Shown here piece after piece: positions 24,231 through 54,985 of a DNA stretch of 64,000 bases. Within the stretch, counting starts at the first letter, position 1, and each line of letters begins with the position of its first letter. Source of the DNA: an uncultured Eubacteriales bacterium. Its GTDB lineage: Bacteria > Bacillota > Clostridia > HGM11514. The DNA lies in the NCBI GenBank assembly GCA_902492655.1, contig CABUMF010000004.1, positions 17,813 through 81,812 on the forward strand, written 5' to 3'. A program made the translations under genes and the position numbers. The notes beneath the pieces are model-generated. The model saw nothing but the letters and a program-made list of their open reading frames with translations, ran no database searches and was not told where the DNA came from.

Positions 24231-25118
24231 ATGAACCAAAAGATAAAGAATCACGGTCTTGCTTTTTTCACGATTTTTATATGGGGTATAACCTTTATAT
24301 CCACAAAGTACCTTGAAAAGAGCTTTACAGCACTCGAAATACTGTTTATCAGATATGTTATGGCATACATTGTATGCTGGATTATCTGTCCGAGGCCGCT
24401 TAAGTTTACGGGCCTTAAATACGAAGGAATGTTGCTGTTGGCTTCCGTTTCGGGCTCCTCGCTTTACCAGTATCTTGAAAATCTTTCGGTTGTATATACA
24501 AATCCTGCAAGCGTGTCATTCATTACGGCAATCGCACCGATTTTTACCGCAATTTTAGCCCACAAATTTCTTGACGAAAGGGTTACGGCGAAAAATATCA
24601 TAGGAATGCTCATATCTGTTGTCGGAGTGTTTTTCATCTGCTTCGGTGATTCAATGTCCCTTGAAACGGGGCTTTTGGGAGATATTATTATCTTTGCAAG
24701 CGTATGGCTGTGGGCGGTTTATTCAATCGTAATCAAAAAAATATCCGAGCTGGGCTTTGAGCAATTCCAGGTTACAAGAAGGCTTTTTATGTATTCTGTA
24801 ATCCTGATGATTCCGTTTATGTGCTTTAAATCTTCGGATATGGATTTTTCCGCACTGCTGAATCCTTATTCCGTAATTAACCTTTCCTTTTTGGGAATTT
24901 TTGCATCTGCAATCTGTTTTTCAACATGGAATATTTCGGTTGCAAATCTCGGTGCCACAACCACAAGCAAGTATCTTTTTATAATGCCGCTTATTACCCT
25001 TGCGGCACAAGCGATTTATGACAGTTCCGGCATTGGTATTGCCGCACTTTTTGGTATGCTTATAACGCTTATCGGAATAGGAATTTCAGAATTTCAAACA
25101 AAAAAACAGTTAATATAA
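24231..25118 (+). CDS. DMT superfamily (EamA-like) transporter
   Basis: Ten predicted TM helices in two EamA-like repeats. 295 aa. Confidence 0.8.
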   Translation: MNQKIKNHGLAFFTIFIWGITFISTKYLEKSFTALEILFIRYVMAYIVCWIICPRPLKFTGLKYEGMLLLASVSGSSLYQYLENLSVVYTNPASVSFITAIAPIFTAILAHKFLDERVTAKNIIGMLISVVGVFFICFGDSMSLETGLLGDIIIFASVWLWAVYSIVIKKISELGFEQFQVTRRLFMYSVILMIPFMCFKSSDMDFSALLNPYSVINLSFLGIFASAICFSTWNISVANLGATTTSKYLFIMPLITLAAQAIYDSSGIGIAALFGMLITLIGIGISEFQTKKQLI

Positions 25119-25132
25119 ATGGAGGTTTACAT

Positions 25133-26380
25133 ATGAACAGATACGAATCGGCAAAACAAATTTATGCGAAGCTTGGCGTGGATACCGACGCCGCAATAAA
25201 AAAGCTTAAGGAAATTCCCGTTTCTCTGCACTGCTGGCAGGGAGATGATGTAACCGGCTTTGACCATGACGGTCCTTTGACCGGCGGAATTCAGACTACG
25301 GGTAACTATCCGGGCAAGGCACGCACTCCCGATGAGCTTATGGAGGATATGGACAAGGTTATTTCCCTTTGTCCCGGCAAGGCAAAGCTTAATCTTCACG
25401 CTTGCTACGCAATTTTTGAGGACGGCGAGTTTGCGGATCGTGACAAGCTTGAACCCAAGCACTTCAAAAAGTGGGTTGACTTCGCCAAAAAAAGAGGTAT
25501 GGGAATTGACTTTAACCCAACCTTCTTCTCTCACCCTAAGGTTAAGGACGGTCTTACACTTTCAAGTCCCGATGAAGAAACAAGAAGATTCTGGATTGAG
25601 CACGGCAAGGCTTGTATCAGAATTTCACAGTATTTTGCGGAAGAAACAGGCATACCTTGCGTTATGAATATCTGGACGGGTGACGGCTTTAAGGATGTTC
25701 CTGCCGACAGGCTGGGACCGCGTATGCGCTATAAGAAATCAATAGAAGAAATCCTTTCCGAGCCCTTTGACAAAAGCAAGGTTAAGCCCTGCGTTGAATC
25801 AAAGGTTTTCGGAATCGGCGTTGAAGCATACACATCGGGTTCTTCCGAATTTGCACTCACATTTGCCGCAACCCATGACGGATGCTTGCCGCTTATGGAT
25901 AACGGTCACTATCATCCCACAGAGGTTGTGTCCGATAAAATTCCGGCGCTTCTTTGCTATTTCCCCGAGATTGCGCTTCATATTACACGAGGCATTCGCT
26001 GGGATTCCGACCATGTGATTGTATTTGACGATGAAACAAAGGAGATCGCAAAAGAAATCGTTCGCTGCGATGCCTTAGACAGAGTATATATGGCGCTTGA
26101 CTATTTCGATGCAAGCATAAACAGAATTGCCGCATGGATAATAGGATTCAGAAGCTGGCAGAAAGCTCTCCTCAATGCGCTTTGCACGCCGAACGAACTT
26201 TTGAAAAAGCTTCAGGACAACGCTGAATTTACAGAGCTTTTATATATGCAGGAAGAGATTAAAACTCTGCCCTTCGGTGATGTCTGGGAGGAATACCTCA
26301 AGGAATGCGGAATAGTTTCCGATGCTTCATGGTTCTCCGAAATCAAAAAATACGAAAACGAGGTTCTTTCAAAGAGATAA
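25133..26380 (+). CDS. rhaA: L-rhamnose isomerase
   Basis: N-terminus ...IPVSLHCWQGDDVTGFD matches the RhaA signature (LPVSMHCWQGDDVSGFE). ~415 aa TIM-barrel isomerase length. Confidence 0.85.
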   Translation: MNRYESAKQIYAKLGVDTDAAIKKLKEIPVSLHCWQGDDVTGFDHDGPLTGGIQTTGNYPGKARTPDELMEDMDKVISLCPGKAKLNLHACYAIFEDGEFADRDKLEPKHFKKWVDFAKKRGMGIDFNPTFFSHPKVKDGLTLSSPDEETRRFWIEHGKACIRISQYFAEETGIPCVMNIWTGDGFKDVPADRLGPRMRYKKSIEEILSEPFDKSKVKPCVESKVFGIGVEAYTSGSSEFALTFAATHDGCLPLMDNGHYHPTEVVSDKIPALLCYFPEIALHITRGIRWDSDHVIVFDDETKEIAKEIVRCDALDRVYMALDYFDASINRIAAWIIGFRSWQKALLNALCTPNELLKKLQDNAEFTELLYMQEEIKTLPFGDVWEEYLKECGIVSDASWFSEIKKYENEVLSKR

Positions 26381-30460: not shown

Positions 30461-31755
30461 ACGAACAAAAATTCATAAAGAGCGGAAGGTGTGCGAGAAA
30501 AGCATGGCTTATCGAAAACACGGGCTGTTACGAAGACGCAAAGCCCCTTCCGTTCCCGGACATAAAAAACGGCAAAAAAAATAAAGTATTCCGTTCAAAT
30601 CTGGGCGAAGCAACTGTAGGCTGCGTTTCGTATAAGCCTTGCGGAATTGAGCTGTATGATTTTTTTGATACGATAAAGTATAAAAAATACACTCTCCGTA
30701 TGAACTACAAGCGTGCCATTGCCGAAAGCTGCGGCTATAACGTGCTTGGAGTTTATGCCGTAACGGTAAATCCGGACTATGAAATAAATTCAAATAAGCC
30801 CTACTACCGCATAAACAGAATAGAAAAGCCGAAATCAAAGGCTGAATTCAAAAGGTACATCGAACGGATTGCCGCCGCTTCCCGAATTTCTCGTCCCGCT
30901 CCTGCCGAAATGAAAAACGACTGTGCCGGCTGCGAGTTTTTCAAGGGCTGCTTTAAGCTTCCGAAGGACAACATTTTCCTTCTGAAGGGGCTTGATTTTT
31001 CGGACAAGGTTAAGCTTTACAATAACGGGATAATCACTTTCGGCGATTACATGAAAAGCAGTCCCTCACCCGTATGCAAAATGCAGATTAACGAGGAAAC
31101 ATTTATTGATAAAGCCTCTATCAGGGCGTTTCTGAAGCAGCTGTCGTACCCTCTCGGATTTCTCGATTTTGAAACGATTTCCCCTCTTGAGCCTATGTTT
31201 TCGGGGTATCATCCGGGGGATAGAATAATCACACAGTTTGCATATCACCAAAAAAACAGCATAAAATCACCGGCTGTTCATAAGGAATTTATAGGCGACG
31301 GTTTAACAAATCCCGAGCCGGGTGCGCTTATGGCACTGCTTGATGCAACAAAGCAGGCAAGGAATGTGCTTTCGTACTCGGTTTACGAAAAAAACTGCGT
31401 GGAAATGCTTGCAAAAAGATTTCCGGAATATAAATCCGAGCTGAATGAGCTTGCGCTAAAGCTTGTTGACCTTGAAATTCCTTTCAAAAATCATATGTAC
31501 TATACTCCCCTTATGGAAGGAAGAACATCGCTGAAATTCGTGCTTCCGGCGCTGTACCCCGAGGATAAAGAACTGGACTATAGCGCAATGAAGATTTCTG
31601 ACGGAGAGACGGCAGCAAGGGAGTATATGAGTCTTAAAGATAAGGATGAAAAAGAACGGAAAAAAATCATAAACAGCTTAAAAAAGTATTGTTCGCTTGA
31701 CTCTCTTGCACTTGTCAAAATAACAGATAAGCTGTACGAGGTTTCAAAAAAGTAA
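30454..31755 (+). CDS. Cas4/RecB-like Cys-cluster nuclease-domain protein (DUF2779-like)
   Basis: N-terminal CARKAWL resembles the Cas4/AddB CxR[KR]x[WY]L motif, and a downstream CAGCEFFKGC (C-x2-C-x5-C) gives the 1+3 Cys Fe-S pattern. The second half contains FLDFETISP (DxE). Overlaps apbE by 7 nt. Confidence 0.45.
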   Translation: MLNEQKFIKSGRCARKAWLIENTGCYEDAKPLPFPDIKNGKKNKVFRSNLGEATVGCVSYKPCGIELYDFFDTIKYKKYTLRMNYKRAIAESCGYNVLGVYAVTVNPDYEINSNKPYYRINRIEKPKSKAEFKRYIERIAAASRISRPAPAEMKNDCAGCEFFKGCFKLPKDNIFLLKGLDFSDKVKLYNNGIITFGDYMKSSPSPVCKMQINEETFIDKASIRAFLKQLSYPLGFLDFETISPLEPMFSGYHPGDRIITQFAYHQKNSIKSPAVHKEFIGDGLTNPEPGALMALLDATKQARNVLSYSVYEKNCVEMLAKRFPEYKSELNELALKLVDLEIPFKNHMYYTPLMEGRTSLKFVLPALYPEDKELDYSAMKISDGETAAREYMSLKDKDEKERKKIINSLKKYCSLDSLALVKITDKLYEVSKK

Positions 31756-31786
31756 AGAGGATGCGGTGATGCATCCTCTTTTCTTC
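31756..31786. terminator. Bidirectional rho-independent terminator
   Basis: AGAGGATGC-GGTGAT-GCATCCTCT hairpin with T-runs on both strands. Lies between convergent genes. Confidence 0.65.
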
Positions 31787-31792: not shown

Positions 31793-32659
31793 TCATCTAT
31801 AGAGATTAGCTTTATCAATGTCGTTAAAGAGATTCATTTTGAACTCAACAACTTCGCGCATTGCCTTTATGCAAGGCGGATAAATCGTGTTAGGCTCAAT
31901 CCATTTCGGATTTTCCGAAAGAACTTCTCTGCACTTTTTATAAAGCGCAACCTTTATATCGCTTGAAATGTTGATTTTGGAAATACCAATCTTAACAGAC
32001 TCCGCAATTTCCTTGTCGGGATTGCTTGAGCCGCCGTGAAGCACAAGGGGAATGTCAACATTCTTTCTGATTTTTTCAAGAAGGTCAAGCTTAAGCTCGG
32101 GCTTCATATCTTTGGGATAAATGCCGTGAGCCGTTCCGATTGCAACCGCAAGGGAATCAATTCCCGTCTTTTCAACAAAGTCCTTTGCCTGCTCGGGATC
32201 GGTATAAATAATATCGTTTGCTCCGCCTTCGTAGGAATCGCCGGTTGAACCGATAGTTCCGAGCTCACCCTCAACAGAAACTCCCAAAGGACGGGCAACT
32301 TCAACAACCTTTTTGCTAAGAGCAACATTTTCCTCATAGGGAAGATGTGAAGCGTCAATCATAACTGAAGTAAAACCGCAGCGAATTGCACGAAGTATTT
32401 CTTCAAATTTTCCGCCATGGTCAAGATGAATAACCATGGGAACTTTGGACTTGTGCGCCTCATCAATGCAGGTTTTTATAAAGCTGTCGCCCAAAAATTC
32501 AAGCTCGGTGGGATGAATTGCCAAAATTACGGGTGCATTTTTTTCTTCCGCACTTTCGATTACGCCTTTAAGTATTGCCTCACTGCCAATGTTAAAGGCA
32601 GGAACAGCAAAGCCGTTTTTATCGGCAGGCGCAAGCATTTCTTTCATGTTGATAAGCAT
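31793..32659 (-). CDS. Class II ketose-bisphosphate aldolase (fructose/tagatose-bisphosphate aldolase family)
   Basis: N-terminus MLINMKEMLAPADKNGFAVPAFNIGS..., HLDHGG zinc site and class II aldolase fold. 288 aa. Confidence 0.85.
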   Translation of the reverse strand: MLINMKEMLAPADKNGFAVPAFNIGSEAILKGVIESAEEKNAPVILAIHPTELEFLGDSFIKTCIDEAHKSKVPMVIHLDHGGKFEEILRAIRCGFTSVMIDASHLPYEENVALSKKVVEVARPLGVSVEGELGTIGSTGDSYEGGANDIIYTDPEQAKDFVEKTGIDSLAVAIGTAHGIYPKDMKPELKLDLLEKIRKNVDIPLVLHGGSSNPDKEIAESVKIGISKINISSDIKVALYKKCREVLSENPKWIEPNTIYPPCIKAMREVVEFKMNLFNDIDKANLYR

Positions 32660-32672
32660 AATTAAATCACTC

Positions 32673-33527
32673 CTATAGATTTTTATTTTCCGAGCCTGAA
32701 AGCTGAATATAGTATTTTACAAGCTCGCGACTTTCCTTTTCTGCGACCTTTATAAGGTCAAAATAATTAATGTCGGGGTTTTCGGCAATGGCTTTTGCCA
32801 CGGCATCACGGTTTGCATTCATAAAATCACAGCCGACATTTATTTTGTTAATTCCGTACTCCACGGACTTTTTTATATTGTATTCTCCGGACCCTGAGCC
32901 ACCGTGAAGCACCAAGGGCATATTTGTGAGGCGTTTGATTTCCTGAAGTCGCTTAAAATCAAATTCCGGAACCTGACCGTCAGGATAATTTCCATGTGAT
33001 GTTCCAATCGAAACCGCAAGAGCGTCAACACCTGTTCTCTCGGCAAAAATCTTAGCCTGCTCCGGGTCGGTGTACATGGCTTCATCTGTGAATGCTCCGC
33101 CTTCGGTTGCGCCGAGAGCACCGATTTCACCCTCCGTTGAAACACCTCTCTTGTGAGCATACTCGGTAATTTCACGGGTCATTTCAATGTTTTCCTCAAG
33201 CTCAAATCGAGAAGCGTCAATCATTACGGACGAAAACCCGTCATCTATTGCCTTTATTATATAGTCCCGTTCACTGCCGTGGTCGAGATTAAGAGCAACC
33301 GATGTTTCGGAGCGTTCAGCAAGCTTCTTTACAATGGGTACAATAAGCTCGCTGTCGCAATGGGTGAGCAGGTGATCTTTATAAATATTCACTATTATCG
33401 GGGCGTTAAGCTCCTCTGCCGCCGATATTACCGAACGCACCGTTTCAATATTAAAACAGTTTATAGCCATAACCGCATAGCCGCCGCGGTTGGCATTATC
33501 AAGCATTTTCTTCATTGAAACATACAT
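32673..33527 (-). CDS. Class II ketose-bisphosphate aldolase, second paralog
   Basis: MYVSMKKMLDNANRGGYAVMAINCFNIE..., NLDHGS, VLHGGSG. 284 aa; paralogous to the adjacent aldolase. Confidence 0.85.
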   Translation of the reverse strand: MYVSMKKMLDNANRGGYAVMAINCFNIETVRSVISAAEELNAPIIVNIYKDHLLTHCDSELIVPIVKKLAERSETSVALNLDHGSERDYIIKAIDDGFSSVMIDASRFELEENIEMTREITEYAHKRGVSTEGEIGALGATEGGAFTDEAMYTDPEQAKIFAERTGVDALAVSIGTSHGNYPDGQVPEFDFKRLQEIKRLTNMPLVLHGGSGSGEYNIKKSVEYGINKINVGCDFMNANRDAVAKAIAENPDINYFDLIKVAEKESRELVKYYIQLSGSENKNL

Positions 33528-33548
33528 AAATCAAAAGCCTCCGAAAAC

Positions 33549-34631
33549 CTAATTGAATTTAACATCCGAGAGGTCAATATCTTCCTCTTCTTCATCGAGA
33601 ACTACGGTATCCTCCTCTTTTGCATCGTGCTTAAGTGCCACGAGAAGAAGCGCCGTTACAACCGTACCTACCGAAAGAGCAAGCATGAAGCCCCAAGGAT
33701 TGATCATCGCCGGAACTATAAACATACCGCCTGACGGAACCATAGAACCTACATTCAAAAGCATGATAAGCGCTCCGCCGACTGCGGAACCGATTGAGCA
33801 GGATGCTATAACTCTTATGGGGTCAACAGCGGCAATCGGAATAACGCCTTCTGTAATCATACAGATACCCATAGGGAAAGCAACCTTAATGTTGTCGGTT
33901 TCGCTCTTTGTGTATCTTTTGCGTCTAATAAGCCAGGAAAGAGCAACGCCGAAGGGCGGAATCATGGAAGCGCAGATTTTAACCGCTTCGGGGCCGTAAA
34001 CGCCGTCCATTAAAAGCCCGTCCGCAAAGAGGGAAGCAACCTTGTTAACGGGACCGCCGAAATCAAACGCAGCCATTGCACCCATTACGGCACCGAAAAC
34101 TCCCTTTGAACCGTCGCTCATGCTGAGAAGAAGGTTTGTTAGAGCTTCGGAAACCCAAGCGATAGGCCCGCCGATTACAAAAAACATAATAAGTCCGATA
34201 ACAACTGACGAAATGAGGGGAATTATCATCATAGGCATAAGTCCCTGAGCCCACTTGGGAACCTTAAGGTGATTTTTCAAAAATTCAACGAAATAACCTG
34301 CAAGGTAACCGCCGAGCATACCTCCGAGGAAACCTGCGCCCATATGCTGGGCAATCATACCCATTAATAGACCGGGTGCGATACCGGGACGGTCGGCAAT
34401 CGAATATGCGATAGCCGCACCCATAACTCCGGGAAGAAGTCCCATACCGTAAACACCGAGTGTTACTGCCGCCTGCCAAACATTGTAGCTTTCCTTATAG
34501 TTTTCGATAGTAGACGGATTGCCTCCGAAAATATTTCCTATTGCTATAAGCAAACCGGATGCAACAACAAGCGGAAGCATAAATGAAATACCTGTAAGCG
34601 CGTGCTTTTTCAGTTGTAATTTCTTGAACAT
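33549..34631 (-). CDS. PTS fructose-family transporter subunit IIC
   Basis: LTGISFMLPLVVASGLLIAIG N-terminal motif of Fru-family IIC. Polytopic, 360 aa. Confidence 0.85.
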   Translation of the reverse strand: MFKKLQLKKHALTGISFMLPLVVASGLLIAIGNIFGGNPSTIENYKESYNVWQAAVTLGVYGMGLLPGVMGAAIAYSIADRPGIAPGLLMGMIAQHMGAGFLGGMLGGYLAGYFVEFLKNHLKVPKWAQGLMPMMIIPLISSVVIGLIMFFVIGGPIAWVSEALTNLLLSMSDGSKGVFGAVMGAMAAFDFGGPVNKVASLFADGLLMDGVYGPEAVKICASMIPPFGVALSWLIRRKRYTKSETDNIKVAFPMGICMITEGVIPIAAVDPIRVIASCSIGSAVGGALIMLLNVGSMVPSGGMFIVPAMINPWGFMLALSVGTVVTALLLVALKHDAKEEDTVVLDEEEEDIDLSDVKFN

Positions 34632-34655
34632 TTTCTTTCCTCCTAAAATTTTAAC

Positions 34656-34967
34656 TTATTTTGAAATTTCTGCTTCAATTTTGTTGATAAGAGCCTTTGG
34701 TGATTTAATTGCGATGTGTGTAGGAACTTCAACAATTCGTTTGCCTTTAAATCTGTCTTTTCCGCCGACCTTGATATCTGCGGCAATGATAACAACATCC
34801 GCCGCAGCAATTTCGGCAGCCGTAAGCTCGTCCTCGGTGCCTATTGTGCCTTGGGTTTCGATTTTGATTTCATGTCCGAGCTCCTTGCCTGCGCTGCACA
34901 GCTTTTCCTTTGCAATGTAGGTGTGTGCAATACCTGATGTACAAGCCGCAATTCCAACAATTTTCAT
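34656..34967 (-). CDS. PTS fructose-family subunit IIB
   Basis: Active-site Cys in GIAACTSGIAHTYIA (Fru-type IIB). 103 aa. Confidence 0.9.
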   Translation of the reverse strand: MKIVGIAACTSGIAHTYIAKEKLCSAGKELGHEIKIETQGTIGTEDELTAAEIAAADVVIIAADIKVGGKDRFKGKRIVEVPTHIAIKSPKALINKIEAEISK

Positions 34968-34982
34968 AAGCTTTCCTCCTTC

Positions 34983-35432
34983 TTATTTTGAAAAGATGCT
35001 TATAATTTCGTCTGCATCTTTTGCATTCAACAGCTTTTTGCAGTTTTCCTCCGAAGCAAGCTTTCTTGCCATCTCCGAAAGAAGTTTTACATGAACACCC
35101 GTCTTGTCATTGTCGTTTACCGCAAGGAGTACAACAAATTCAACCGGTGCATCGTCAACACTTTTCCATTCAACGGGGCTTGAAAGACGGCCTACCGCAA
35201 CAGTGGTTTCCGAAACATTTGTCGACTTACCGTGGGGAATTGCAATTCCGTTTCCTATGCCCGTAGTGGAAACAGCCTCACGGTCCAAAACATCCTTCAA
35301 AAATTCGTCACGGTTCTTTATATTGCCGCTTGCGCAAAGGACATCAACCAAAGCGGAAAGAGCCTCCTCCTTGGTTTTTGCATCAAGCTTTGTAACGATG
35401 TTTTCTTTTTTCAATACTTCAGATACATTCAT
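34983..35432 (-). CDS. PTS subunit IIA (fructose/mannitol-type, PTS_EIIA_2)
   Basis: GIGNGIAIPHGK with phosphorylatable His. 149 aa. Confidence 0.85.
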   Translation of the reverse strand: MNVSEVLKKENIVTKLDAKTKEEALSALVDVLCASGNIKNRDEFLKDVLDREAVSTTGIGNGIAIPHGKSTNVSETTVAVGRLSSPVEWKSVDDAPVEFVVLLAVNDNDKTGVHVKLLSEMARKLASEENCKKLLNAKDADEIISIFSK

Positions 35433-37063
35433 AATTCAACCTCTCCTTTAAGTACCGCCTTTGCGGTTTTCTCGGCATCGCAAACATTAATTGAGCCGAG
35501 CTTATGTTTTATTCTTTTTACCAGCGGAAACGGAACACTGAATTTTCTCAGTCCGAGTCCCAAAAGCAGCTCTGTAAAATCGGTATTTGCCGCCAGATCT
35601 CCGCAAACGCTGACTTCAATACCGGCGTTATTTGCGCTTTTTATAATGTGTGCAAGAAGCCGTATTACAGCACCGTGCCGAGGGTTATAAAGATGCTCAA
35701 CCTCACCGTTTCCCCTGTCAGCCGCCATTGTGTACTGCACAAGGTCATTTGTTCCGATGCTGAAAAAATCTGCGTGCTTTGCAAAAACATCCGCCATAAC
35801 TGCGCTTGCGGGGGTTTCAATCATTATACCGAGGGATACATCCTTGCAGAAATCTGTGTTTTCATTTGCAAGCTCCGATGTAAGATTTGAAATAATCTCT
35901 TTTGTTCTTGTTATTTCGTTGATGTCAGAAACCATAGGGAGCATAATTTTTATCCTTTTCCCTGCCCCTCCGATAAGCAATGCCTTAAGCTGTTCTTTGA
36001 AAATTTCCTCATTGGACAGGCAAAGTCTTATTCCTCTGTTTCCAAGGAAAGGATTCTCCTCATCCTTCGTACCCATATATGAAAGCTTTTTGTCTCCGCC
36101 CACATCAATGGTTCTGACAATCACATCCTCGCACTTATCAAAAACCTCTTTATATGCCCTTGTTTGCTCCTCTACCGTCGGTTTTCTTACAGAAGATGAA
36201 TATAAAAACTCGGTTCTGAAAAGCCCTATTCCGTCAAATTTTTCGTCTTCGGTGCCGTATAAATCAGAAGGATTCCCTATATTTATGCAAAGCTTTATTC
36301 TCACGCCGTCCGCTGTAACGGCATCCGCTCCTTTAAGCTCATCAAGCCTTGAAAGGAAGCTTTGCTCATCTATAAGCTTATCCTCATACATTTTTGCGGT
36401 TTCATCATCGGGGGAAACAATAAGCCTTCCCTCATATCCGTCTATAAAAGCGTCCTTTAGGCTGTCATCCTTAGATAAAATCTCACATCCCACAACCGCC
36501 GGAATACCCAGGGATTTTGCCAAAATAGCTGTGTGAGAGGTAACTCCGCCTGTTTCGCAAACAAGCCCTAAAAGGCGATCCTTGGGAAAATTCATGGTGT
36601 CAACCGGGGTGAGCTCATGAGATACGATTATAAATTTTTCGTCACCCTCGGGAAGTGCAAAATCTCCGCCTCCCAAAAGCTCCTCACAAAGGAGCTTGCC
36701 GATATATCTTATATCATCAGCTCTTCTTTTCATGTATTCGTTTTTGTTTGCCGCCAGCACCGCCGCCGCACTTTCCGTAACATCCCTGATCGCTTTTTCC
36801 TCGTCCTCGCCGCCTTCCACAGCCGCCATAATAGGATCTTTTAGCATGGAGTCTGACAAAAGCATTTCATACGCTTCAAATATTTTTGCTTCGTCCTCGC
36901 CGACATCGCATTTTGCCTTTTCCTTAAGACTGCTAACCTTAAGGAGTGCCTTTTCAAAAGCTTCGCCGATAGATATTTTGTCTCCGCCGGTCTTTTTTTC
37001 GTAGTATAGCACCTTTGCGCCCGCTATGCCGTCCGAAGCACCTATGCCTTTATATATTTTCAT
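35429..37063 (-). CDS. ptsI: Phosphoenolpyruvate-protein phosphotransferase (PTS Enzyme I) paralog
   Basis: N-terminal GIGASDGIAGAK, phospho-His domain, C-terminal PEP-utilising TIM barrel (GGxTSHxAI-like, CGExxxxP-like). 544 aa. Sits inside a sugar-specific operon. Confidence 0.85.
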   Translation of the reverse strand: MKIYKGIGASDGIAGAKVLYYEKKTGGDKISIGEAFEKALLKVSSLKEKAKCDVGEDEAKIFEAYEMLLSDSMLKDPIMAAVEGGEDEEKAIRDVTESAAAVLAANKNEYMKRRADDIRYIGKLLCEELLGGGDFALPEGDEKFIIVSHELTPVDTMNFPKDRLLGLVCETGGVTSHTAILAKSLGIPAVVGCEILSKDDSLKDAFIDGYEGRLIVSPDDETAKMYEDKLIDEQSFLSRLDELKGADAVTADGVRIKLCINIGNPSDLYGTEDEKFDGIGLFRTEFLYSSSVRKPTVEEQTRAYKEVFDKCEDVIVRTIDVGGDKKLSYMGTKDEENPFLGNRGIRLCLSNEEIFKEQLKALLIGGAGKRIKIMLPMVSDINEITRTKEIISNLTSELANENTDFCKDVSLGIMIETPASAVMADVFAKHADFFSIGTNDLVQYTMAADRGNGEVEHLYNPRHGAVIRLLAHIIKSANNAGIEVSVCGDLAANTDFTELLLGLGLRKFSVPFPLVKRIKHKLGSINVCDAEKTAKAVLKGEVEL

Positions 37064-37067
37064 AAAA

Positions 37068-37322
37068 TCACTCCGAATCCAATGTTTTTATGAGTGCATC
37101 AATGGCCTCTTTTTCGTCCTCGCCTTCAGCGCAAAGCTCGATCGTGTCGCCCTTGACCGCACCGACGCAAAGAACCATCAAAATGCTTTTGGCTTCAAAT
37201 TCTTCACCGTCTTTGATAATGGAAATCTTGCTTTTGAAGCTTCCGGCAGTCTTGCAAAAATCGGTTGCCGGACGGGCATGCAAGCCCTCCTCGTTTTTAA
37301 TAGTGTAGCTTACCTTAATCAT
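37068..37322 (-). CDS. HPr-family phosphocarrier protein paralog
   Basis: GLHARPA His-15 motif. Start set to MIKVSYT (GGAGGA upstream) giving 84 aa; the track GTG start would add 9 aa. Confidence 0.8.
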   Translation of the reverse strand: MIKVSYTIKNEEGLHARPATDFCKTAGSFKSKISIIKDGEEFEAKSILMVLCVGAVKGDTIELCAEGEDEKEAIDALIKTLDSE

Positions 37323-37507
37323 TTTTCCTCCAATCCTAAGCTTTACCACTGCTTTATGAATTTATATATTTCTTTTGAATTATCAAGTTTTCTTAGCTTA
37401 TCGCATTCTTCTTTATACTCTCAAAACAATAAAATACTGCCGAAAACAAAAAATCAAGCTCTTTTAGATTATTATTGTACATATAAAATTTAATATACAA
37501 AAATTTC

Positions 37508-37538
37508 ACAAAAAAAGAAGAGTTCGTTAAACTCTTCT
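37508..37538 (-). terminator. Rho-independent terminator after sigma-r4-like gene
   Basis: GAAGAGTT-TAAC-GAACTCTTC hairpin followed by an 8-nt U-run on the minus strand. Separates the regulator gene from the PTS operon. Confidence 0.65.
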
Positions 37539-37550
37539 CAAATTAAGTTA

Positions 37551-37967
37551 TTAAAGCTTCGCATAATTCTCCAAAGCACGCTTGTGGAGTTTGCAAAACC
37601 AGGTGTATTCGTAACAAATTTCCATGCTGAGTGCAATCAGAGAACGACCTCTTAAATACTTCTCATACAAAATCTTTCTGTCAAGCTCCGAAAGCATAAG
37701 GAGCTTTCTGTCAATGGTTTTTCTGACTTCCTCAATTTTTGCCGCCGTATAATACTCGGATTTTTGAAGCTCGATTTCTCTAACTTCGGCTTCTCTTATT
37801 CTTTGCAGCAATGCTTTTGACCTTCCGGTATCACCTGCCCTGAACCTCATCATGCCCAAATTCAGGTGATTGTTGACATTTCTTGCATGCAATTTTGCCA
37901 ATTTTTCTGACAACACACGATAGGTCATCAGTTCCGATTTCGCTTCTTTGACCGTCATTCGTAACAT
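37551..37967 (-). CDS. Small sigma-70 region-4-like DNA-binding protein (ArpU/DUF1492-like regulator)
   Basis: 138 aa. C-terminus LSELDRKILYEKYLRGRSLIALSMEICYEYTWFCKLHKRALENYAKL has the sigma-70 region 4 / LuxR-like HTH pattern. Confidence 0.45.
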   Translation of the reverse strand: MLRMTVKEAKSELMTYRVLSEKLAKLHARNVNNHLNLGMMRFRAGDTGRSKALLQRIREAEVREIELQKSEYYTAAKIEEVRKTIDRKLLMLSELDRKILYEKYLRGRSLIALSMEICYEYTWFCKLHKRALENYAKL

Positions 37968-41142: not shown

Positions 41143-43068
41143 TTATTTATTAAAGAACCAAACAGCCATACGGCTTTCTTCACTCCAGGTTTTGCCTGCG
41201 GAAGCATAGTCCGTAACCGTAAAATAACCTCCGTCATTTTGCGGAATTCTGAGCTCCTCTATGTGCTTATACGGTGCAATGTCCTTTTCCGGGAACACTG
41301 CGTCCACAAAGCCGTCGTCATTTATTTTCACATCGAATATTCCGTCAACCGACTTTCCGAGCCTGTTTTCAACCGCAAGCATTACAGGACCCCGTCTGAG
41401 CGAAATTCTGCGGTAAGCATCCGGATCTTCCTTATCGAATGCAGGAACCATGTAATTACGCCCCCACACAACCTTGTTCATTAAAACCTCGGAACCGTAA
41501 TGCACAGGATAAATAGCCTCAGTTCTCATATCAAACTCAAGAATAATTCTGTCATTATCGCACCAAGTTCTTTCGAGCCTTATGTATTTACCCGCTCCCA
41601 ATCCGTCAATGCTTTCTCCGTTTACAAAAACCTTTGTGCACTTGCTCCATTCGGGATTTCTCAAATAAAGCGCAAATTTCCCGCCGTTTGTATTTGAAAG
41701 GGTTATATTAACAGTTTTATCTTTCGGATATTCCGTTTCGGTTTTAAATACCATACCGTCCGTTTCTTTTGTTCCGTCAATATAAAAGTTGACAACATAG
41801 CCGTCCTGCGCTTTTACGATGTTATACATTGACAGCATCGCAATACCGGCGGCACCTATACACGCACAACAGCCGTAATAATGATTATCGTGCATAACCC
41901 TAAAACCGCCTATGCTGATACCCCTCGTTGACGGAGTGAGAGGACTGTATGAATCAAACGGAAGCGGCTCGTGAATAACATCCGGAGAAATCTCAAAATG
42001 AGTTCTCGGGATTTTCTTCTCGTTATTCACAGCACCCAAATATGCGTTGTAAAAAGAACGCTCAAATGCATCCATATATTTACTGTCGCCGGTCAGAAGA
42101 TTGAGCTTTGCAAAAAACTTCATAAGCGTAACGGTTACGCAGGTTTCCTGCATATGCATACCCACATTGGCACTCGCCTGACGAGCCGTAGAATGATCAA
42201 AGAGCTCATGTGTACAGCCGCTGCAACCTATAACCGTGAAATCGTTTTCAAGGATTTGATCGGCAAAATTAATAACAGCCGTCTTGTATTTTTCTTCCCC
42301 TGTAATTCTGTAATATTCCAAAAGTCCCTCAAAGCACGAAGTCATTTCATAAGCCTTCGTTACCGGATACTGGTACGGATGAAGCTCGTTTTCATACGCA
42401 AGTGTAAAAATATTCTCAACAGAGCTTCCGCCGCAATCGACTATGTATTTGGCAAAATCGAAGTATTTTTGGTTTTTGGTCAGATTATAAAGCCTTACAA
42501 CAGGCTCTAAAATAGAGGAGGAATTAACACCTCTCCAGTGGTTTGTGGCATCGTTTATTTCCTTTTTGCCTTCACCGATGTGCTCCATTATATCATCAAC
42601 CATGGTCGACATAAATTTTACCATTTTGTCAATAAGCTCATCGTCTTTGCAAATCTCGATAAAATACTGCATTCCCAAAAGAACATATTTTCTTGACCAC
42701 ATATCCCAGCCGGTGTATCTTCTGGTATTGTATGTGGAAACAACGCCGTCTGCATCGCCCACCGTCAGCATATCATAAACCGTGGTTTCAAGGGCGCTGT
42801 ACAAATCTTCATTTTTTGTACAACTGTACAAAAAGCTTCCGCCGCGCATCATTTTGCCCCAATACTCGCCTCTCCAACCAAAATCGGCGTCATCGGTACG
42901 AAATCTGTACTGATCGACGAATCTTTTCCAAATCACATTGTCCTTCAAATCGAAGTTTTCTATAAAGTCAATGTATTCCTGAATAAAACCCGTGTATTTA
43001 CTTTCATTTTCCGAAAAAACAAAGGTATCGGTAGAAAAATCAGGATAGTTAACCTTTCTTAAATCCAT
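41143..43068 (-). CDS. Glycoside hydrolase family 127/146-like (beta-L-arabinofuranosidase HypBA1-like, DUF1680)
   Basis: 641 aa with adjacent-Cys zinc/catalytic motif HYYGCCACIGAAG and (alpha/alpha)6-barrel-like N-terminal region. Confidence 0.6.
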   Translation of the reverse strand: MDLRKVNYPDFSTDTFVFSENESKYTGFIQEYIDFIENFDLKDNVIWKRFVDQYRFRTDDADFGWRGEYWGKMMRGGSFLYSCTKNEDLYSALETTVYDMLTVGDADGVVSTYNTRRYTGWDMWSRKYVLLGMQYFIEICKDDELIDKMVKFMSTMVDDIMEHIGEGKKEINDATNHWRGVNSSSILEPVVRLYNLTKNQKYFDFAKYIVDCGGSSVENIFTLAYENELHPYQYPVTKAYEMTSCFEGLLEYYRITGEEKYKTAVINFADQILENDFTVIGCSGCTHELFDHSTARQASANVGMHMQETCVTVTLMKFFAKLNLLTGDSKYMDAFERSFYNAYLGAVNNEKKIPRTHFEISPDVIHEPLPFDSYSPLTPSTRGISIGGFRVMHDNHYYGCCACIGAAGIAMLSMYNIVKAQDGYVVNFYIDGTKETDGMVFKTETEYPKDKTVNITLSNTNGGKFALYLRNPEWSKCTKVFVNGESIDGLGAGKYIRLERTWCDNDRIILEFDMRTEAIYPVHYGSEVLMNKVVWGRNYMVPAFDKEDPDAYRRISLRRGPVMLAVENRLGKSVDGIFDVKINDDGFVDAVFPEKDIAPYKHIEELRIPQNDGGYFTVTDYASAGKTWSEESRMAVWFFNK

Positions 43069-46936: not shown

Positions 46937-47674
46937 TTATTTCGTTATTCCCTTATATGTATTTTGCACTTCGTTATAGCTTTCAAGATTGCCTATATCG
47001 TATCGTTTTCCGGGCATTTCGAGCGTTGAAATACGCCTCTTTCCGCAAAGCCACGCAATGAAGCTTCCCGGCGCATCCTTGCCGCAACCGCTGTCAAGCC
47101 CAACCTTCACAAGCTTTATATCATTCTTTTTATAAATATAAAACGGAGGGCAAAGCCAGTTTGACTTCGGCTCCTGCGGTTTTTCCTCCATTGATGTAAT
47201 TATGCCGTCACCGTCAATCGACAAAACACCGCCCCTCTTAAGGCGTTCTTCGTCACTTTCATAATAACGCATAACCGATGTTGTACCGCTTTTTTTGAAA
47301 AAACCGATAAATCTCGAAAGAGAAAAATCAAGCACATTGTCCCCTGCAATAACCATTAAATCATCGGAAATACCGAGCTTATCTATTGCAAACCAAATAT
47401 CCGCCACCGCTCCGAGCCTCGTTTCGTTGGACTCCGTTCCGTCATCCAGCACCACGATGTTCTGAGGCTTTTCAGCAGCCCATTTATTGAAATTGTCCGC
47501 AAACTTGTGGTTTGACACAACTATGAACCTTGAAACCTCGCCTGAAGATGCAATATCATCCACAAGGTGGTCAAGTATCGTTTTTCCGCACACCTCCAAA
47601 AGAGGCTTGGGGGTATCCTTTGTAAGAGGATAAAGTCTTGTGGCATATCCTGCCGCCAAAATCAGACATTCCAT
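46937..47674 (-). CDS. Sugar-1-phosphate nucleotidyltransferase (NDP-sugar pyrophosphorylase, short RmlA/GlmU-N-like)
   Basis: LILAAGYATRLYPLTKDTPKPLL (G-x-G-x-R-L signature). Start MECLIL at 47674 with GAGGA 6 nt upstream, 2 nt after the kinase stop. Confidence 0.75.
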   Translation of the reverse strand: MECLILAAGYATRLYPLTKDTPKPLLEVCGKTILDHLVDDIASSGEVSRFIVVSNHKFADNFNKWAAEKPQNIVVLDDGTESNETRLGAVADIWFAIDKLGISDDLMVIAGDNVLDFSLSRFIGFFKKSGTTSVMRYYESDEERLKRGGVLSIDGDGIITSMEEKPQEPKSNWLCPPFYIYKKNDIKLVKVGLDSGCGKDAPGSFIAWLCGKRRISTLEMPGKRYDIGNLESYNEVQNTYKGITK

Positions 47675-47676
47675 AA

Positions 47677-48867: not shown

Positions 48868-48884
48868 AGCTGATACCTTCCTAA

Positions 48885-50164: not shown

Positions 50165-50425
50165 TTATTTAATTATCCCTTTCTTAGCGACAGAAAAAAG
50201 GCGAGTTACATATTCAGAGTTTTCAAAATCCGGTCGAGGCATTGATACATCAATATCATCATCCCACGGAATAATATCTTTATGCCTGACAGCACCAATA
50301 AGTGTTCCATATTCAATATTGTATATTAGATTATTTTATTCACATATTCTATGGAACTCATCCAGCAAAACAAACAGAAGCTTTTGAATCGCTTTAACAT
50401 CATTTGATTCAACATAATCTTTCAC
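50165..50425 (-). pseudogene. LicD-family (phosphocholine/sugar-phosphate transferase) gene remnant: in-frame TAA nonsense at codon 30 plus 3' truncation
   Basis: GTG start overlaps the Wzx stop (GTGA), RBS GGAGAAGG. Translation [74 protein letters not shown]... matches LicD N-termini (..[37 protein letters not shown]..). The frame ends at codon 86, whereas LicD proteins are ~270 aa. Confidence 0.7.
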
Positions 50426-54983: not shown

Positions 54984-54985
54984 AG

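What the first reader, a model, noticed from the sequence alone, without database searches (positions are those of the whole stretch)
31793..37322. Self-contained ketose PTS operon with private Enzyme I and HPr, two class II aldolases, but no kinase or regulator
Seven co-directional genes encode HPr, EI, IIA, IIB, IIC(Fru family) and two paralogous FbaA/GatY-type aldolases. Dedicated EI/HPr paralogs inside a sugar operon are rare (E. coli fry/frw-like). A Fru-family PTS should deliver a ketose-1-phosphate that needs a 1-phosphofructokinase-type kinase before class II aldolase cleavage, and none is present. So either the kinase is elsewhere, or one aldolase cleaves a ketose-1-phosphate directly. 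There is no DeoR/PRD regulator; the only nearby regulator is the sigma-r4-like gene.
Basis: partly seen in the sequence, partly recalled or inferred. Interest (0 to 1): 0.55.

Follow-up and report, generated by a model that had tools for sequence, protein, structure and literature searches.

The report
Frz-type PTS–aldolase operon, activator deleted
This is a seven-gene sugar-uptake operon in a human-gut Clostridia bacterium that belongs to the widespread but biochemically unsolved "frz" family, carries its own general PTS proteins, has lost its activator gene, and has two aldolases that look built to split a singly phosphorylated sugar without the usual kinase step.

Summary
Seven tightly packed minus-strand genes at 31793-37322 encode HPr, Enzyme I, Fru-family IIA, IIB and IIC, and two class II (PF01116) aldolases that are 41% identical. 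A promoter-like site and two terminators bound them.

The closest known system is the ExPEC E. coli frz operon, and Listeria lmo2133-2138 by annotation. It is not fry/frw or the Klebsiella tag locus. The core has the same gene order as frz (IIB 64%, IIC 53%, Ald1 58%, Ald2 40% identity).

The missing kinase is a property of the whole family. None of 18 frz-type species loci has a FruK-type kinase. About 21 other loci pair the same aldolase clade with an ABC importer and a single kinase. Others pair it with a YqhD-like aldehyde reductase or with DhaK.

Both aldolase clades keep every zinc, catalytic and C1-phosphate residue. Both lack the two distal-phosphate ligands, Ser61 and Arg331 in E. coli FbaA numbering. 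Direct cleavage of a ketose-1-phosphate is therefore the best reading, but it is inferred, not shown.

"No regulator" is a secondary loss. A roughly 31-codon stub of the PRD activator gene lies just upstream of HPr. All 11 closest relatives have the intact activator followed by HPr and EI.

Whether EI and HPr are "private" could not be tested. The substrate is unknown.

The parts
37515..37539 (-). Intrinsic-terminator-like hairpin closing the upstream ORF (orf138). It marks the upstream boundary of the operon.
   Evidence: 11-pair stem followed by a T-run. The sequence was read.
37343..37445 (-). Decayed 3' stub (about 31 codons plus the stop) of a PRD/Mga-type activator gene, with in-frame stop codons upstream. 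It is what remains of the deleted regulator.
   Evidence: tblastn with the regulators of L005 and L018 gives 55% and 48% identity to their last 31-33 residues (E = 2e-6 and 1e-5). The stub (..EYKEECDKLRKLDNSKEIYKFIKQW*) ends 20 nt before the HPr ATG, the same position as in the relatives.
37359..37386 (-). Sigma-70-type promoter-like site (TTGATA, 16 nt, TAAATT) inside the stub. It is a candidate present-day promoter for the operon.
   Evidence: 9 of 12 positions match. Sites of this quality are as frequent in shuffled sequence, so this is weak evidence.
37068..37322 (-). ptsH-like gene: HPr, 84 aa, with His15 (GLHARP) and Ser46 (KSI).
35429..37063 (-). ptsI-like gene: Enzyme I, 544 aa, with the GGVTSH active-site His, NDLVQY and VCGD motifs.
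   Evidence: Only 51-64% identical to the EI of the closest relatives, whose IIC is 85-94% identical.
34983..35432 (-). EIIA of the Fru/Mtl/Ntr type (PTS_EIIA_2), with the AIPHG phosphorylation site. It overlaps the EI gene by 4 nt.
   Evidence: 37% identical to Frz IIA.
34656..34967 (-). EIIB of the Fru type, 103 aa, with Cys9 in AACTSGIAHT.
   Evidence: 64% identical to Frz IIB.
33549..34631 (-). EIIC of the Fru family, 360 aa.
   Evidence: TIGR01427 scores 285 against 158. 53% identical to Frz IIC.
32673..33527 (-). Class II aldolase of the 'Ald2' clade, 284 aa. The catalytic, zinc and C1-phosphate residues are kept. In E. coli FbaA numbering, position 61 is Tyr, 288 is Gly and 331 is Phe.
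   Evidence: 40% identical to the 283-aa Frz aldolase.
31793..32659 (-). Class II aldolase of the 'Ald1' clade (NCBIfam PRK08185), 288 aa. The catalytic, zinc and C1-phosphate residues are kept. In E. coli FbaA numbering, position 61 is His, 288 is Ser and 331 is Asn (EPN in place of DPR).
   Evidence: 58% identical to the 286-aa Frz aldolase.
31754..31781 (-). Intrinsic-terminator-like hairpin 12 nt after the Ald1 stop codon. It marks the end of the operon.
   Evidence: 11-pair stem with 5 G-C pairs, followed by a T-run.
37551..37967 (-). Neighbouring 138-aa ORF with weak ArpU/sigma-r4-like matches. It sits where relatives have the activator gene and is probably not part of the system.
   Evidence: TIGR01637 scores 23 bits, below cutoff; PHROG 36, E = 4e-7; no phage match; absent from every related locus.

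Best explanation
This is a frz-type PTS-aldolase catabolic operon.

- **Shown:** it is orthologous in content and order to the core of the ExPEC E. coli frz operon (IIA-IIB-IIC-Ald2-Ald1). In this lineage of uncultured gut Clostridia it is extended at the 5' end by its own HPr and Enzyme I.
- **Shown:** the ancestral first gene, a PRD/Mga-type activator, has been deleted here. About 31 codons remain as a stub.
- **Inferred mechanism:** PEP passes its phosphoryl group through EI, HPr, IIA and IIB. IIC imports a ketose-like sugar as a monophosphate, most likely a ketose-1-phosphate. One or both aldolases then cleave it directly to DHAP plus an unphosphorylated aldehyde, with no second phosphorylation. 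Enzymes encoded elsewhere dispose of the aldehyde.
- **Consequence:** both aldolases keep the DHAP/zinc half-site and lack the distal-phosphate site, so the family name 'ketose-bisphosphate aldolase' is probably wrong for them.
- **Open points:** the substrate is unknown. So is the reason for having two aldolases; different C3/C4 stereochemistry, a heteromer, or an epimerase-like role are all speculation.
For: **Orthology with frz.**
- Gene order and identities match the E. coli frz locus between yicI and yicH.
- Listeria lmo2133-2137 carry the same annotations, and that paper cites the ExPEC operon as their homologue.

**The distal-phosphate site is lost.**
- In alignments with E. coli FbaA, GatY, KbaY and YdjI, and with five crystallised FBP aldolases, all true bisphosphate aldolases have Ser/Thr61 and the DPR Arg331. 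All 55 Ald1-clade sequences have His (or Ala/Ser) at 61 and Asn/Ser/Asp/Ala/Leu at 331. All 21 Ald2 sequences have Tyr/Phe/Val/Leu at 61 and a non-basic residue at 331.
- D109, H110, E174, H226, H264, S267 and N286 are invariant in every sequence.
- PMC10665668 states that the 6-phosphate is held by Ser49, Arg259 and the partner-subunit Arg280. It also states that the monophosphate enzyme SqiA has Ala at the Arg280 position.
- YdjI, annotated as an octuluronate-1-phosphate aldolase, also lacks this Arg.

**Gene context** (48 species-level loci).
- 18 loci are frz-type, and none has a pfkB/FruK-type kinase.
- About 21 loci are SBP-permease-permease-Ald1 plus one ADP-PFK/GK-like kinase. That is an importer, one phosphorylation and the aldolase.
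- 4 loci are PTS-Ald1 followed by a YqhD-like Fe-alcohol dehydrogenase.
- 1 locus has DhaK, and 1 has an FGGY kinase.

**Positive control.** The L069 aldolase has the GatY-like signature (T61, A288, DPR) and sits directly beside a FruK-like kinase.

**Ald1 is not the housekeeping FBA.** A separate ~310-aa DPR-containing FBA, about 39% identical, is found in related gut Clostridia.

**Regulator stub:**

**The relay and ORFs are intact:**. The arrangement is identical in contigs from three gut samples.
Against: - Nothing here is biochemical, and no member of either aldolase clade has a solved structure.
- Both aldolases pass the broad NCBIfam 'ketose-bisphosphate aldolase' subfamily cutoff, TIGR00167.
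- A compensating basic residue elsewhere in the pocket cannot be excluded from sequence alone. The conserved His at position 61 of Ald1 could bind some anionic group.
- The phosphorylation position set by this EII is unknown.
- One PTS-type locus without Ald2 (L058) does carry a PfkB-family gene 2.4 kb downstream.
- E. coli FruK can serve a foreign ketose-1-phosphate (tagatose-1-P) from an unlinked locus (abstract), so an unlinked kinase is a real possibility.
- The rest of this genome could not be searched.
- With the activator deleted, expression of this copy is unproven.
Confidence: 0.55

Rival explanations
1. This is a conventional bisphosphate route. The PTS makes a ketose-1-phosphate, an unlinked pfkB-type kinase (FruK, LacC or TagK-like) makes the 1,6-bisphosphate, and the two aldolases are FBP/TBP-type enzymes of different stereospecificity.
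For: - Both proteins belong to PF01116 and pass the TIGR00167 'ketose-bisphosphate aldolase' cutoff.
- The nearest crystallised relatives are FBP and TBP aldolases.
- E. coli FruK from an unlinked operon can phosphorylate tagatose-1-P (abstract).
- The genome outside the window is unknown.
- L058 has a PfkB-family gene in the same gene string.
Against: - Ser61 and Arg331, the two mapped distal-phosphate ligands, are replaced in all 76 Ald1 and Ald2 sequences examined. They are kept in every bona fide FBP/TBP aldolase and in the outgroup.
- No FruK-type kinase lies in any of the 18 frz-type loci.
- About 21 loci supply Ald1 with an ABC importer and only one kinase.
- Aldehyde reductase and DhaK partners make sense only if the aldehyde product is unphosphorylated.
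- All FBP and TBP equivalog cutoffs are missed.
Confidence: 0.25
2. The operon is a silent relic in this organism. Losing the PRD activator and the native promoter switched it off, and the intact ORFs only reflect a recent deletion.
For: - All but about 31 codons of the activator gene are gone.
- All 11 closest relatives keep it as the first gene.
- The only promoter-like site is a 9/12 match of a quality that is equally common in shuffled sequence.
- The contigs from three samples are 100% identical, so there is no evidence of purifying selection since the deletion.
Against: - All seven ORFs are full length with intact catalytic and phosphorylation motifs.
- Ribosome-binding sites and tight spacing are kept.
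- The arrangement is present in three independent human gut samples.
- Losing an activator can also be bypassed by a new constitutive promoter or by read-through.
Confidence: 0.12
3. EI and HPr here are simply the organism's only general PTS proteins, and Ald1 is its glycolytic FBP aldolase. On this reading it is a housekeeping ptsHI-fba cluster fused to the single PTS of the cell, not a dedicated catabolic module.
For: - Ald1 is highly conserved (75-88% identity across Clostridia), as housekeeping enzymes are.
- No other PTS gene is found among the ORFs of the 64-kb window that were scanned.
Against: - The Ald1 clade always sits in sugar-specific loci with a PTS or ABC importer.
- It lacks the distal-phosphate ligands.
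- Related gut Clostridia carry a separate DPR-containing FBA.
- EI is the fastest-evolving protein of the operon (51-64% identical where IIC is 85-94%), which is unlike a housekeeping EI.
- The part about EI and HPr being the sole copies remains open.
Confidence: 0.05

Closest known systems
frz operon of extraintestinal pathogenic E. coli (Rouquet et al. 2009, J Bacteriol 191:4427; cited in PMC12928451 and PMC8777976)
   Same: - The five-gene core is the same and in the same order: Fru-family IIA, IIB, IIC, then an Ald2-type aldolase, then an Ald1-type aldolase.
- Identities are IIB 64%, IIC 53%, Ald1 58%, Ald2 40% and IIA 37%.
- The aldolase active-site signatures are the same.
- There is no FruK-type kinase.
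- The ancestor of the window operon also had a PRD/Mga-type activator as its first gene.
   Different: - The window operon adds HPr and EI.
- It has lost the activator.
- It lacks the ROK (fructokinase-like) kinase and the D-lyxose/D-mannose cupin isomerase that end the E. coli operon.
- The frz substrate and aldolase activities are, as far as I could find, not determined. The original paper is not held in the library.
Listeria monocytogenes lmo2133-lmo2138
   Same: It is annotated as two type II FBP-aldolase-like genes plus fructose-type IIC, IIB and IIA. PMC2996996 treats it as the homologue of the ExPEC operon.
   Different: No EI or HPr is listed in that cluster. It is reported as lost in some lineage III strains.
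E. coli YdjH/YdjI (pfkB kinase plus PF01116 aldolase acting on L-glycero-L-galacto-octuluronate-1-phosphate) and the class II sulfofructose-1-phosphate aldolase SqiA (PMC10665668)
   Same: - These are PF01116 enzymes that cleave a ketose-1-phosphate with no distal phosphate.
- They also lack the partner-subunit Arg.
- The logic is the same: one phosphorylation, then the aldolase.
   Different: - They are only about 33-37% identical to Ald1 and Ald2.
- Residues at positions 61 and 288 differ.
- Their distal groups are a carboxylate or a sulfonate, and they are fed by kinases, not by a PTS.
Canonical fructose and tagatose PTS routes (FruBKA + FbaA; Tag-1-P kinase + GatY/KbaY-type aldolase)
   Same: They use a Fru-family EII and a PF01116 aldolase that yields DHAP.
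   Different: - Those routes need a pfkB-family 1-phosphofructokinase or tagatose-1-P kinase, and aldolases with Ser/Thr61 and the DPR Arg. Neither is present here.
- GatY and KbaY also pair with GatZ and KbaZ, which are absent here.
E. coli fry and frw PTS paralogue clusters
   Same: EI/HPr-like functions are encoded next to Fru-family EII genes.
   Different: - The NCBIfam models I take, from my own knowledge, to be the FrwC, FrwB, FrwD/FryB and FrvA equivalogs (PRK10478, PRK10474, PRK10427, PRK09913) are all missed. The scores against cutoffs are 268 vs 426, 112 vs 135, 84 vs 153 and 103 vs 151.
- From my own knowledge, fryA and ptsA are fused multidomain proteins, and those clusters contain no PF01116 aldolases.
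Vertebrate fructolysis (ketohexokinase, aldolase B, triokinase). This is a functional analogy only.
   Same: The proposed chemistry is the same: ketose-1-P is split into DHAP plus a free aldehyde. DhaK (a triokinase homologue) or an aldehyde reductase appears in some bacterial loci.
   Different: The enzymes are unrelated (aldolase B is a class I aldolase), and phosphorylation is by a PTS or an ADP-PFK/GK-like kinase.

Membership tests
frz-type PTS-aldolase operon (ExPEC frz / Listeria lmo2133-2138) | Separate Fru-family IIA, IIB and IIC genes, in that order | tested here: met
   The order and orthology to the E. coli frz genes are shown.
frz-type PTS-aldolase operon (ExPEC frz / Listeria lmo2133-2138) | Two PF01116 aldolase paralogues directly downstream, Ald2-type first and Ald1-type second, each best-matching its Frz counterpart | tested here: met
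   Ald1 is 58% identical to Frz-286 and 34% to Frz-283; Ald2 is 40% to Frz-283 and 38% to Frz-286. The clade signatures agree.
frz-type PTS-aldolase operon (ExPEC frz / Listeria lmo2133-2138) | PRD/Mga-type activator (FrzR-like) as the first gene | tested here: not met
   There is no intact gene. Only a ~31-codon C-terminal stub remains at 37343-37445. The activator is present at 16 of the 18 frz-type species loci; the other two are a contig that ends inside EI (L015) and Longicatena (L034).
frz-type PTS-aldolase operon (ExPEC frz / Listeria lmo2133-2138) | ROK kinase and cupin isomerase at the 3' end (E. coli version) | tested here: not met
   Both are absent from the window. They are also absent from most non-E. 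coli members, so they are probably accessory rather than defining.
Class II ketose-1,6-bisphosphate aldolases (FbaA / GatY / KbaY) | PF01116 fold with zinc-binding histidines, the catalytic Asp and the C1-phosphate site | tested here: met
   D109, H110, E174, H226, H264, S267 and N286 (FbaA numbering) are invariant in both aldolases. TIGR00167 scores 282 and 255 against a cutoff of 216.
Class II ketose-1,6-bisphosphate aldolases (FbaA / GatY / KbaY) | Distal (C6) phosphate ligands: Ser/Thr at FbaA position 61 and the Arg331 of the DPR motif from the partner subunit | tested here: not met
   Ald1 has His and Asn at these positions; Ald2 has Tyr and Phe. The ligand roles are taken from PMC10665668. 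The equivalence of E. coli FbaA R331 with that Arg rests on my own knowledge plus the alignment.
Class II ketose-1,6-bisphosphate aldolases (FbaA / GatY / KbaY) | NCBIfam equivalog scores for FBP or tagatose-bisphosphate aldolases | tested here: not met
   TIGR01859 scores 292 and 271 against a cutoff of 343. TIGR01858 scores 277 and 247 against 444. PRK12857 scores 298 and 258 against 423.
NCBIfam PRK08185 subfamily (unnamed 'hypothetical protein' aldolase subfamily) | Score above the curated cutoff of 405 bits | tested here: met
   Ald1 scores 485.8 bits and is a member. Ald2 scores 244 bits and is not.
General PTS proteins EI and HPr | Family cutoffs and phosphorylation-site motifs | tested here: met
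   TIGR01417 scores 485 against 342 and TIGR01003 scores 90 against 48. EI has its active-site His and HPr has His15 and Ser46. The E. coli PtsI and PtsH equivalog cutoffs are not reached (423 vs 824; 63 vs 153).
Dedicated ('private') EI/HPr paralogues | A second, general ptsH-ptsI pair elsewhere in the same genome | not testable with these tools
Indirect evidence: EI and HPr sit in the operon in all 11 closest species and in none of the other frz-type loci. EI also evolves faster than the rest of the operon.
E. coli fry / frw / frv clusters | Equivalog-level match of the IIA, IIB and IIC proteins | tested here: not met
   PRK10478 scores 268 against 426, PRK10474 scores 112 against 135, PRK10427 scores 84 against 153, and PRK09913 scores 103 against 151.
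FruK/TagK-dependent ketose-1-P pathway | A pfkB-family 1-phosphoketose kinase encoded with the PTS and the aldolase | tested here: not met
   There is none among the 50 window ORFs scanned against Pfam. A pfkB HMM found none in the 18 frz-type loci, but it did find the kinase beside the GatY-like control aldolase in L069.

The most novel reading that the evidence does not exclude
The two frz aldolase clades are ketose-1-phosphate (monophosphate) aldolases. Together they define a kinase-free 'PTS then aldolase' route, a bacterial counterpart of fructolysis. The same Ald1 enzyme is alternatively fed by an ABC importer plus a single ADP-PFK/GK-like ketose 1-kinase in Chloroflexota and spirochaetes.

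The recurring D-lyxose/D-mannose-type isomerase, the YqhD-like aldehyde reductase and DhaK suggest a rare ketose as substrate. It could be a ketopentose giving glycolaldehyde, or a ketohexose giving glyceraldehyde.

The version with its own HPr and EI would be a portable, self-sufficient PTS cassette for hosts that lack a general PTS.
Probability: 0.45. Interest if true: 0.65.

Novelty: new variant of a known kind. Interest (0 to 1): 0.5.

Why it matters
**The open question.** The frz operon has been linked to fitness, adhesion and virulence in ExPEC. Its Listeria counterpart is described as lineage-dependent. I found no paper that names its substrate or its aldolase chemistry.

**A testable hypothesis.** The residue signature and the interchangeable front ends found here (a PTS, or an ABC importer plus one kinase) point the same way. 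These 'ketose-bisphosphate aldolases' would act on monophosphates and release a free aldehyde.

**If true.**
- It would correct the annotation of a large protein subfamily. At least 7,995 database proteins score E ≤ 1e-30 with Ald1.
- It would explain why no kinase is ever linked to these operons.
- It would add a short route for rare-ketose use by gut bacteria.

**This copy specifically.** The HPr-EI extension and the cleanly deleted activator make it a natural experiment in how PTS modules become self-contained and how they are rewired.

Tried and rejected
1. **Ald1 as the housekeeping glycolytic FBA.** Its 75-88% conservation suggested this. I rejected it because the clade always lies in sugar-specific loci, lacks the distal-phosphate ligands, and a separate DPR-type FBA exists in related gut Clostridia.
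2. **fry/frw/frv equivalence.** Rejected on the NCBIfam cutoffs.
3. **Tagatose-1-P (TagK) or FruK route.** No pfkB kinase was found in the window or in the frz-type loci.
4. **Sulfoquinovose (SqiA) cluster.** Similarity is lower than to FBAs, and no SQ isomerase or sulfoquinovosidase is nearby.
5. **cre (CcpA) site at the operon promoter.** None was found. The 14 cre-like matches in the window lie elsewhere.
6. **Mobile-element boundaries.** No flanking direct or inverted repeats of note were found.
7. **orf138 as a conserved regulator of the operon.** It is absent from all related loci, has only weak PHROG and ArpU matches, and has no match in phage records.
8. **Selection test from polymorphism.** The contigs from three samples are 100% identical, so the test gave no information.
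9. **Substrate clues from genes downstream of the operon in the 11 closest relatives.** The neighbours differ in every genome: SLH proteins, AraC regulators, RhaA, a GH36-like protein and a glycyl-radical enzyme.
10. **A link between the nearby RhaA and the operon.** RhaA recurs next to the operon in L019, but the adjacent genes are unrelated. I left this as a note.
11. **The original frz paper.** It could not be read.
12. **Literature searches.** Searches for ketose-1-phosphate aldolases linked to PTSs found nothing on this family.

Full report
**1. What is in the sequence.**

Seven ORFs on the minus strand fill 31793-37322, with spacings from a 4-nt overlap to 24 nt. Pfam and NCBIfam identify them as follows:
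- HPr (37068-37322; the ATG at 37322 follows a GGAGG site)
- Enzyme I (35429-37063)
- EIIA of the Fru/Mtl type (34983-35432)
- Fru-type EIIB (34656-34967)
- Fru-family EIIC (33549-34631)
- two class II PF01116 aldolases, which I call Ald2 (32673-33527, 284 aa) and Ald1 (31793-32659, 288 aa)

The two aldolases are 41% identical. The phosphorelay motifs are intact. A terminator-like hairpin follows Ald1 (31781-31754). Another closes the upstream 138-aa ORF (37539-37515). A modest promoter-like site lies at 37386-37359.

The 50 larger ORFs scanned across the 64-kb window include no pfkB-type kinase, no further PTS gene and no intact sugar regulator near the operon. The flanking genes are housekeeping or unrelated: RarA, an M23 peptidase, DUF2779, ApbE, spoIIIA, RelA and RecJ. 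The window matches a human gut metagenome scaffold from a spore-forming Clostridia bacterium.

**2. What it is related to.**

Ald1 reaches the cutoff of an unnamed NCBIfam subfamily, PRK08185. It has thousands of relatives, 75-88% identical across Clostridia.

Context look-ups showed that IIA-IIB-IIC-Ald2-Ald1 is a conserved module:
- Clostridium estertheticum has it behind a PRD/Mga-type regulator, without EI or HPr.
- A gut relative (L005) has regulator-HPr-EI-IIA-IIB-IIC-Ald2-Ald1.

A DNA search of E. coli genomes then hit the region between yicI and yicH in ExPEC-type strains. Its order is BglG/Mga-type regulator, IIA, IIB, IIC, a 283-aa aldolase, a 286-aa aldolase, a ROK kinase and a D-lyxose/D-mannose cupin isomerase. 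This is the frz operon of Rouquet et al. 2009 (cited).

The window proteins are orthologous gene for gene:

| Window protein | Frz counterpart | Identity |
|---|---|---|
| IIB | Frz IIB | 64% |
| IIC | Frz IIC | 53% |
| Ald1 | Frz-286 aldolase | 58% |
| Ald2 | Frz-283 aldolase | 40% |
| IIA | Frz IIA | 37% |

Listeria lmo2133-2137 carry the same annotations, and that paper names the ExPEC operon as their homologue. The E. coli fry, frw and frv equivalog models are all missed.

**3. The missing regulator is a deletion.**

All 11 closest species-level relatives (81-87% Ald1 identity, L013-L023) and L005 start the operon with a ~660-aa PRD regulator directly followed by HPr.

tblastn with those regulators finds their last 31-33 residues in the window at 37346-37445. 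The match is on the operon strand and ends 20 nt before the HPr start:
- window: ..EYKEECDKLRKLDNSKEIYKFIKQW*
- L005: ..EDEEECDRLRKLRESKEIVKIFEKW*

Identity is 48-55% (E = 2e-6 to 1e-5). In-frame stop codons lie upstream, and no further similarity follows. The activator gene was therefore lost in this lineage, and a stub remains.

The space is now occupied by orf138 and its terminator. This ORF has weak ArpU/PHROG 'transcription regulator' matches. It has no match in phage records, and it occurs at no related locus.

The activator-less arrangement is 100% identical in contigs from three human gut samples. It is therefore stable in the population, but the data give no test of selection. Whether the operon is still expressed is open.

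**4. The missing kinase is a family trait, and the aldolases lack a distal-phosphate site.**

A scan of one genome per species with Ald1 returned 48 loci at 50% identity or more. I called ORFs and labelled them with seed proteins and Pfam. The loci sort as follows:

| Locus type | Number | Taxa or notes |
|---|---|---|
| frz-type: PTS + Ald2 + Ald1 | 18 | 11 carry EI (HPr was also called in 5 of them). Taxa include Pelosinus, Niallia, Pantoea, Erwinia and Longicatena |
| PTS + Ald1, no Ald2 | 8 | 4 are followed by a YqhD-like Fe-alcohol dehydrogenase; 1 by a cupin isomerase and an FGGY kinase; 1 by a Lyx-isomerase-like gene, a TIM-barrel isomerase, an RpiB-like gene and DhaK |
| SBP-permease-permease-Ald1 plus one ADP-PFK/GK-like kinase | about 21 | Chloroflexota, Sphaerochaetaceae and Bacillota |
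| Two Ald1-like genes with no adjacent importer, next to a divergent ABC + Ald1 + kinase set | 1 | L051 (Gracilibacillus) |

An HMM built from E. coli FruK, PfkB, RbsK, PsuK and YdjH found no such kinase in any frz-type locus. It did find one directly beside the L069 aldolase. Among PTS-type loci, only L058 has a PfkB-family gene, 2.4 kb downstream.

I aligned 106 aldolases with E. coli FbaA, GatY, KbaY and YdjI, and Ald1 with five crystallised FBP aldolases. D109, H110, E174, H226, H264, S267 and N286 (FbaA numbering) are invariant everywhere. The positions that differ are:

| Group | Position 61 | Position 288 | DPR motif / position 331 |
|---|---|---|---|
| FbaA, crystallised FBAs, ~310-aa outgroup FBAs of Acutalibacteraceae-type genomes | Ser | Asp or Asn | DPR, Arg |
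| GatY, KbaY, L069 | Thr | Ala | DPR, Arg |
| Ald1 clade (55 sequences) | His (Ala or Ser in a few) | Ser | (E/D)P + N/S/D/A/L, never Arg or Lys |
| Ald2 clade (21 sequences) | Tyr, Phe, Val or Leu | Gly | non-basic |

PMC10665668 states that in class II FBP aldolases the 6-phosphate is held by Ser49, Arg259 and Arg280 from the partner subunit. It also states that SqiA, which cleaves sulfofructose-1-phosphate, has Ala at the Arg280 position. YdjI, annotated as an octuluronate-1-phosphate aldolase, also lacks the Arg. Ald1 from PTS, ABC and Fe-ADH contexts forms one clade (46-55% identity between contexts, against 33-39% to all other class II aldolases). Ald2 is a separate clade.

**5. Most likely mechanism.**

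- **Shown:** the gene content, the orthology with frz, the intact relay motifs, the deleted activator, the loss of two mapped distal-phosphate ligands, and the context statistics.
- **Inferred:** the EII delivers a ketose-like sugar as a 1-phosphate. Ald1 and/or Ald2 cleave it directly to DHAP plus a free aldehyde. That aldehyde is reduced (YqhD-like enzyme), phosphorylated (DhaK or FGGY) or isomerised (cupin) by enzymes that vary between genomes and are not in this window.

The strongest single argument is that the same aldolase clade is supplied either by a PTS or by an ABC importer plus exactly one kinase. In both cases that is one phosphorylation before the cleavage.

E. coli FbaA can already condense DHAP with unphosphorylated glyceraldehyde to make fructose-1-P, so the chemistry is within reach of the fold.

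The reason for two aldolases is unknown. The differences at position 288, which that paper's docking model places against the C4 hydroxyl, fit different C3/C4 stereochemistries. This is speculation.

The substrate is unknown. The recurring D-lyxose/D-mannose-type isomerase (five loci of both transporter types) and the YqhD-like reductase would suit a ketopentose giving glycolaldehyde or a ketohexose giving glyceraldehyde.

**6. EI and HPr.**

They are bona fide by family cutoffs and motifs. EI lies inside the operon in all 11 closest species, and an HPr ORF was also called in five of them (the ORF caller missed short genes elsewhere). Neither is present in any frz-type locus of organisms known to have a general PTS, namely E. 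coli, Pantoea, Erwinia, Clostridium and Bacillaceae.

EI is the least conserved protein of the operon: 51-64% identical where IIC is 85-94%. This fits either of two pictures:
- a dedicated paralogue
- a cassette that brings its own general components into hosts lacking them

**7. Novelty and verdict.**

The module is a known kind (frz, 2009), so the operon itself is not new. Three things are new:
- The variant: HPr and EI are added, the activator is deleted, and there is no ROK kinase or cupin isomerase.
- The family-wide signature and context evidence that the 'ketose-bisphosphate aldolases' of frz-type loci are probably monophosphate aldolases.
- The ABC-plus-kinase sister loci.

I found no paper that reports the substrate or the aldolase activities. 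Interest is moderate, at 0.5. This is a specific, testable answer to a niche but long-standing question, and it rests on sequence and context only.

Noticed in passing
window 24231-26380 (+); L019 12092-13321: An L-rhamnose isomerase (RhaA, Pfam E = 5e-177) sits behind an EamA-type transporter. No rhamnulokinase or rhamnulose-1-P aldolase was found in the window. A 67%-identical RhaA also lies 1.2 kb downstream of the frz-like operon in relative L019, but the genes next to it are unrelated.
   Followed up: partly
window 50422-62868 (-): A low-GC block (0.32-0.36, against about 0.43 elsewhere) encodes a surface-polysaccharide locus. It contains two TupA-like ATP-grasp proteins, a PGA_cap protein, an alanine-dehydrogenase-like protein, a Wzy-type polymerase, three glycosyltransferases and a DegT aminotransferase.
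   Followed up: partly
window 16450-16463 and 42237-42250: There are two perfect palindromic cre-like sites (TGAAACCGTTTACA and TGAAATCGTTTTCA). Allowing one mismatch, the window has 14 matches, against 5.5 expected by chance. None lies at the PTS operon promoter.
   Followed up: no
L036-L059 (e.g. L045 6716-12039): About 21 loci from Chloroflexota, Sphaerochaetaceae and Bacillota hold a compact SBP-permease-permease-Ald1 plus ADP-PFK/GK-like kinase operon. It is sometimes preceded by an RpiR/SIS regulator. I found no description of this system.
   Followed up: partly
L003 and L004 (Clostridium estertheticum): The frz-like operon here ends in three aldolases: Ald2 plus two tandem Ald1 copies that are 76-77% identical to the window Ald1. 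A second PRD-regulator-IIA-IIBC-Ald1-like cluster lies directly upstream.
   Followed up: no
L025 13856-14974 (Clostridioides difficile): An IS605 OrfB/TnpB-type gene (OrfB_IS605 plus the Cas12f1-like TNB domain) sits inside the Ald1-PTS locus, between the IIBC gene and the regulator gene.
   Followed up: no
L056: A contig labelled as a Bacteroides thetaiotaomicron MAG carries a Firmicutes-type PRD-regulator-PTS-Ald1-Fe-ADH locus. It is nearly the same as those of Enterocloster and Lachnospiraceae, so it is probably a binning contaminant.
   Followed up: no
L023 (complete MAG CP091729.1): The regulator, EI, IIC and Ald2 each appear as two adjacent ORF fragments. This looks like frameshift errors in the assembly rather than real pseudogenes.
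   Followed up: no
window 37551-37967 (-): This 138-aa ORF has weak matches to ArpU/sigma-r4-like and PHROG 'transcription regulator' families. It has its own promoter-like site (38040-38012) and terminator. It occupies the place of the deleted activator, has no tblastn match in phage records, and is not found at any related locus.
   Followed up: partly
window 46937-50111 (-): A GHMP (galactokinase-like) kinase, a sugar-1-phosphate nucleotidyltransferase and an uncharacterised nucleotidyltransferase lie in a row, next to an MBL-fold hydrolase and a CCA-adding enzyme. This looks like a sugar-nucleotide activation set, unrelated to the PTS operon.
   Followed up: no
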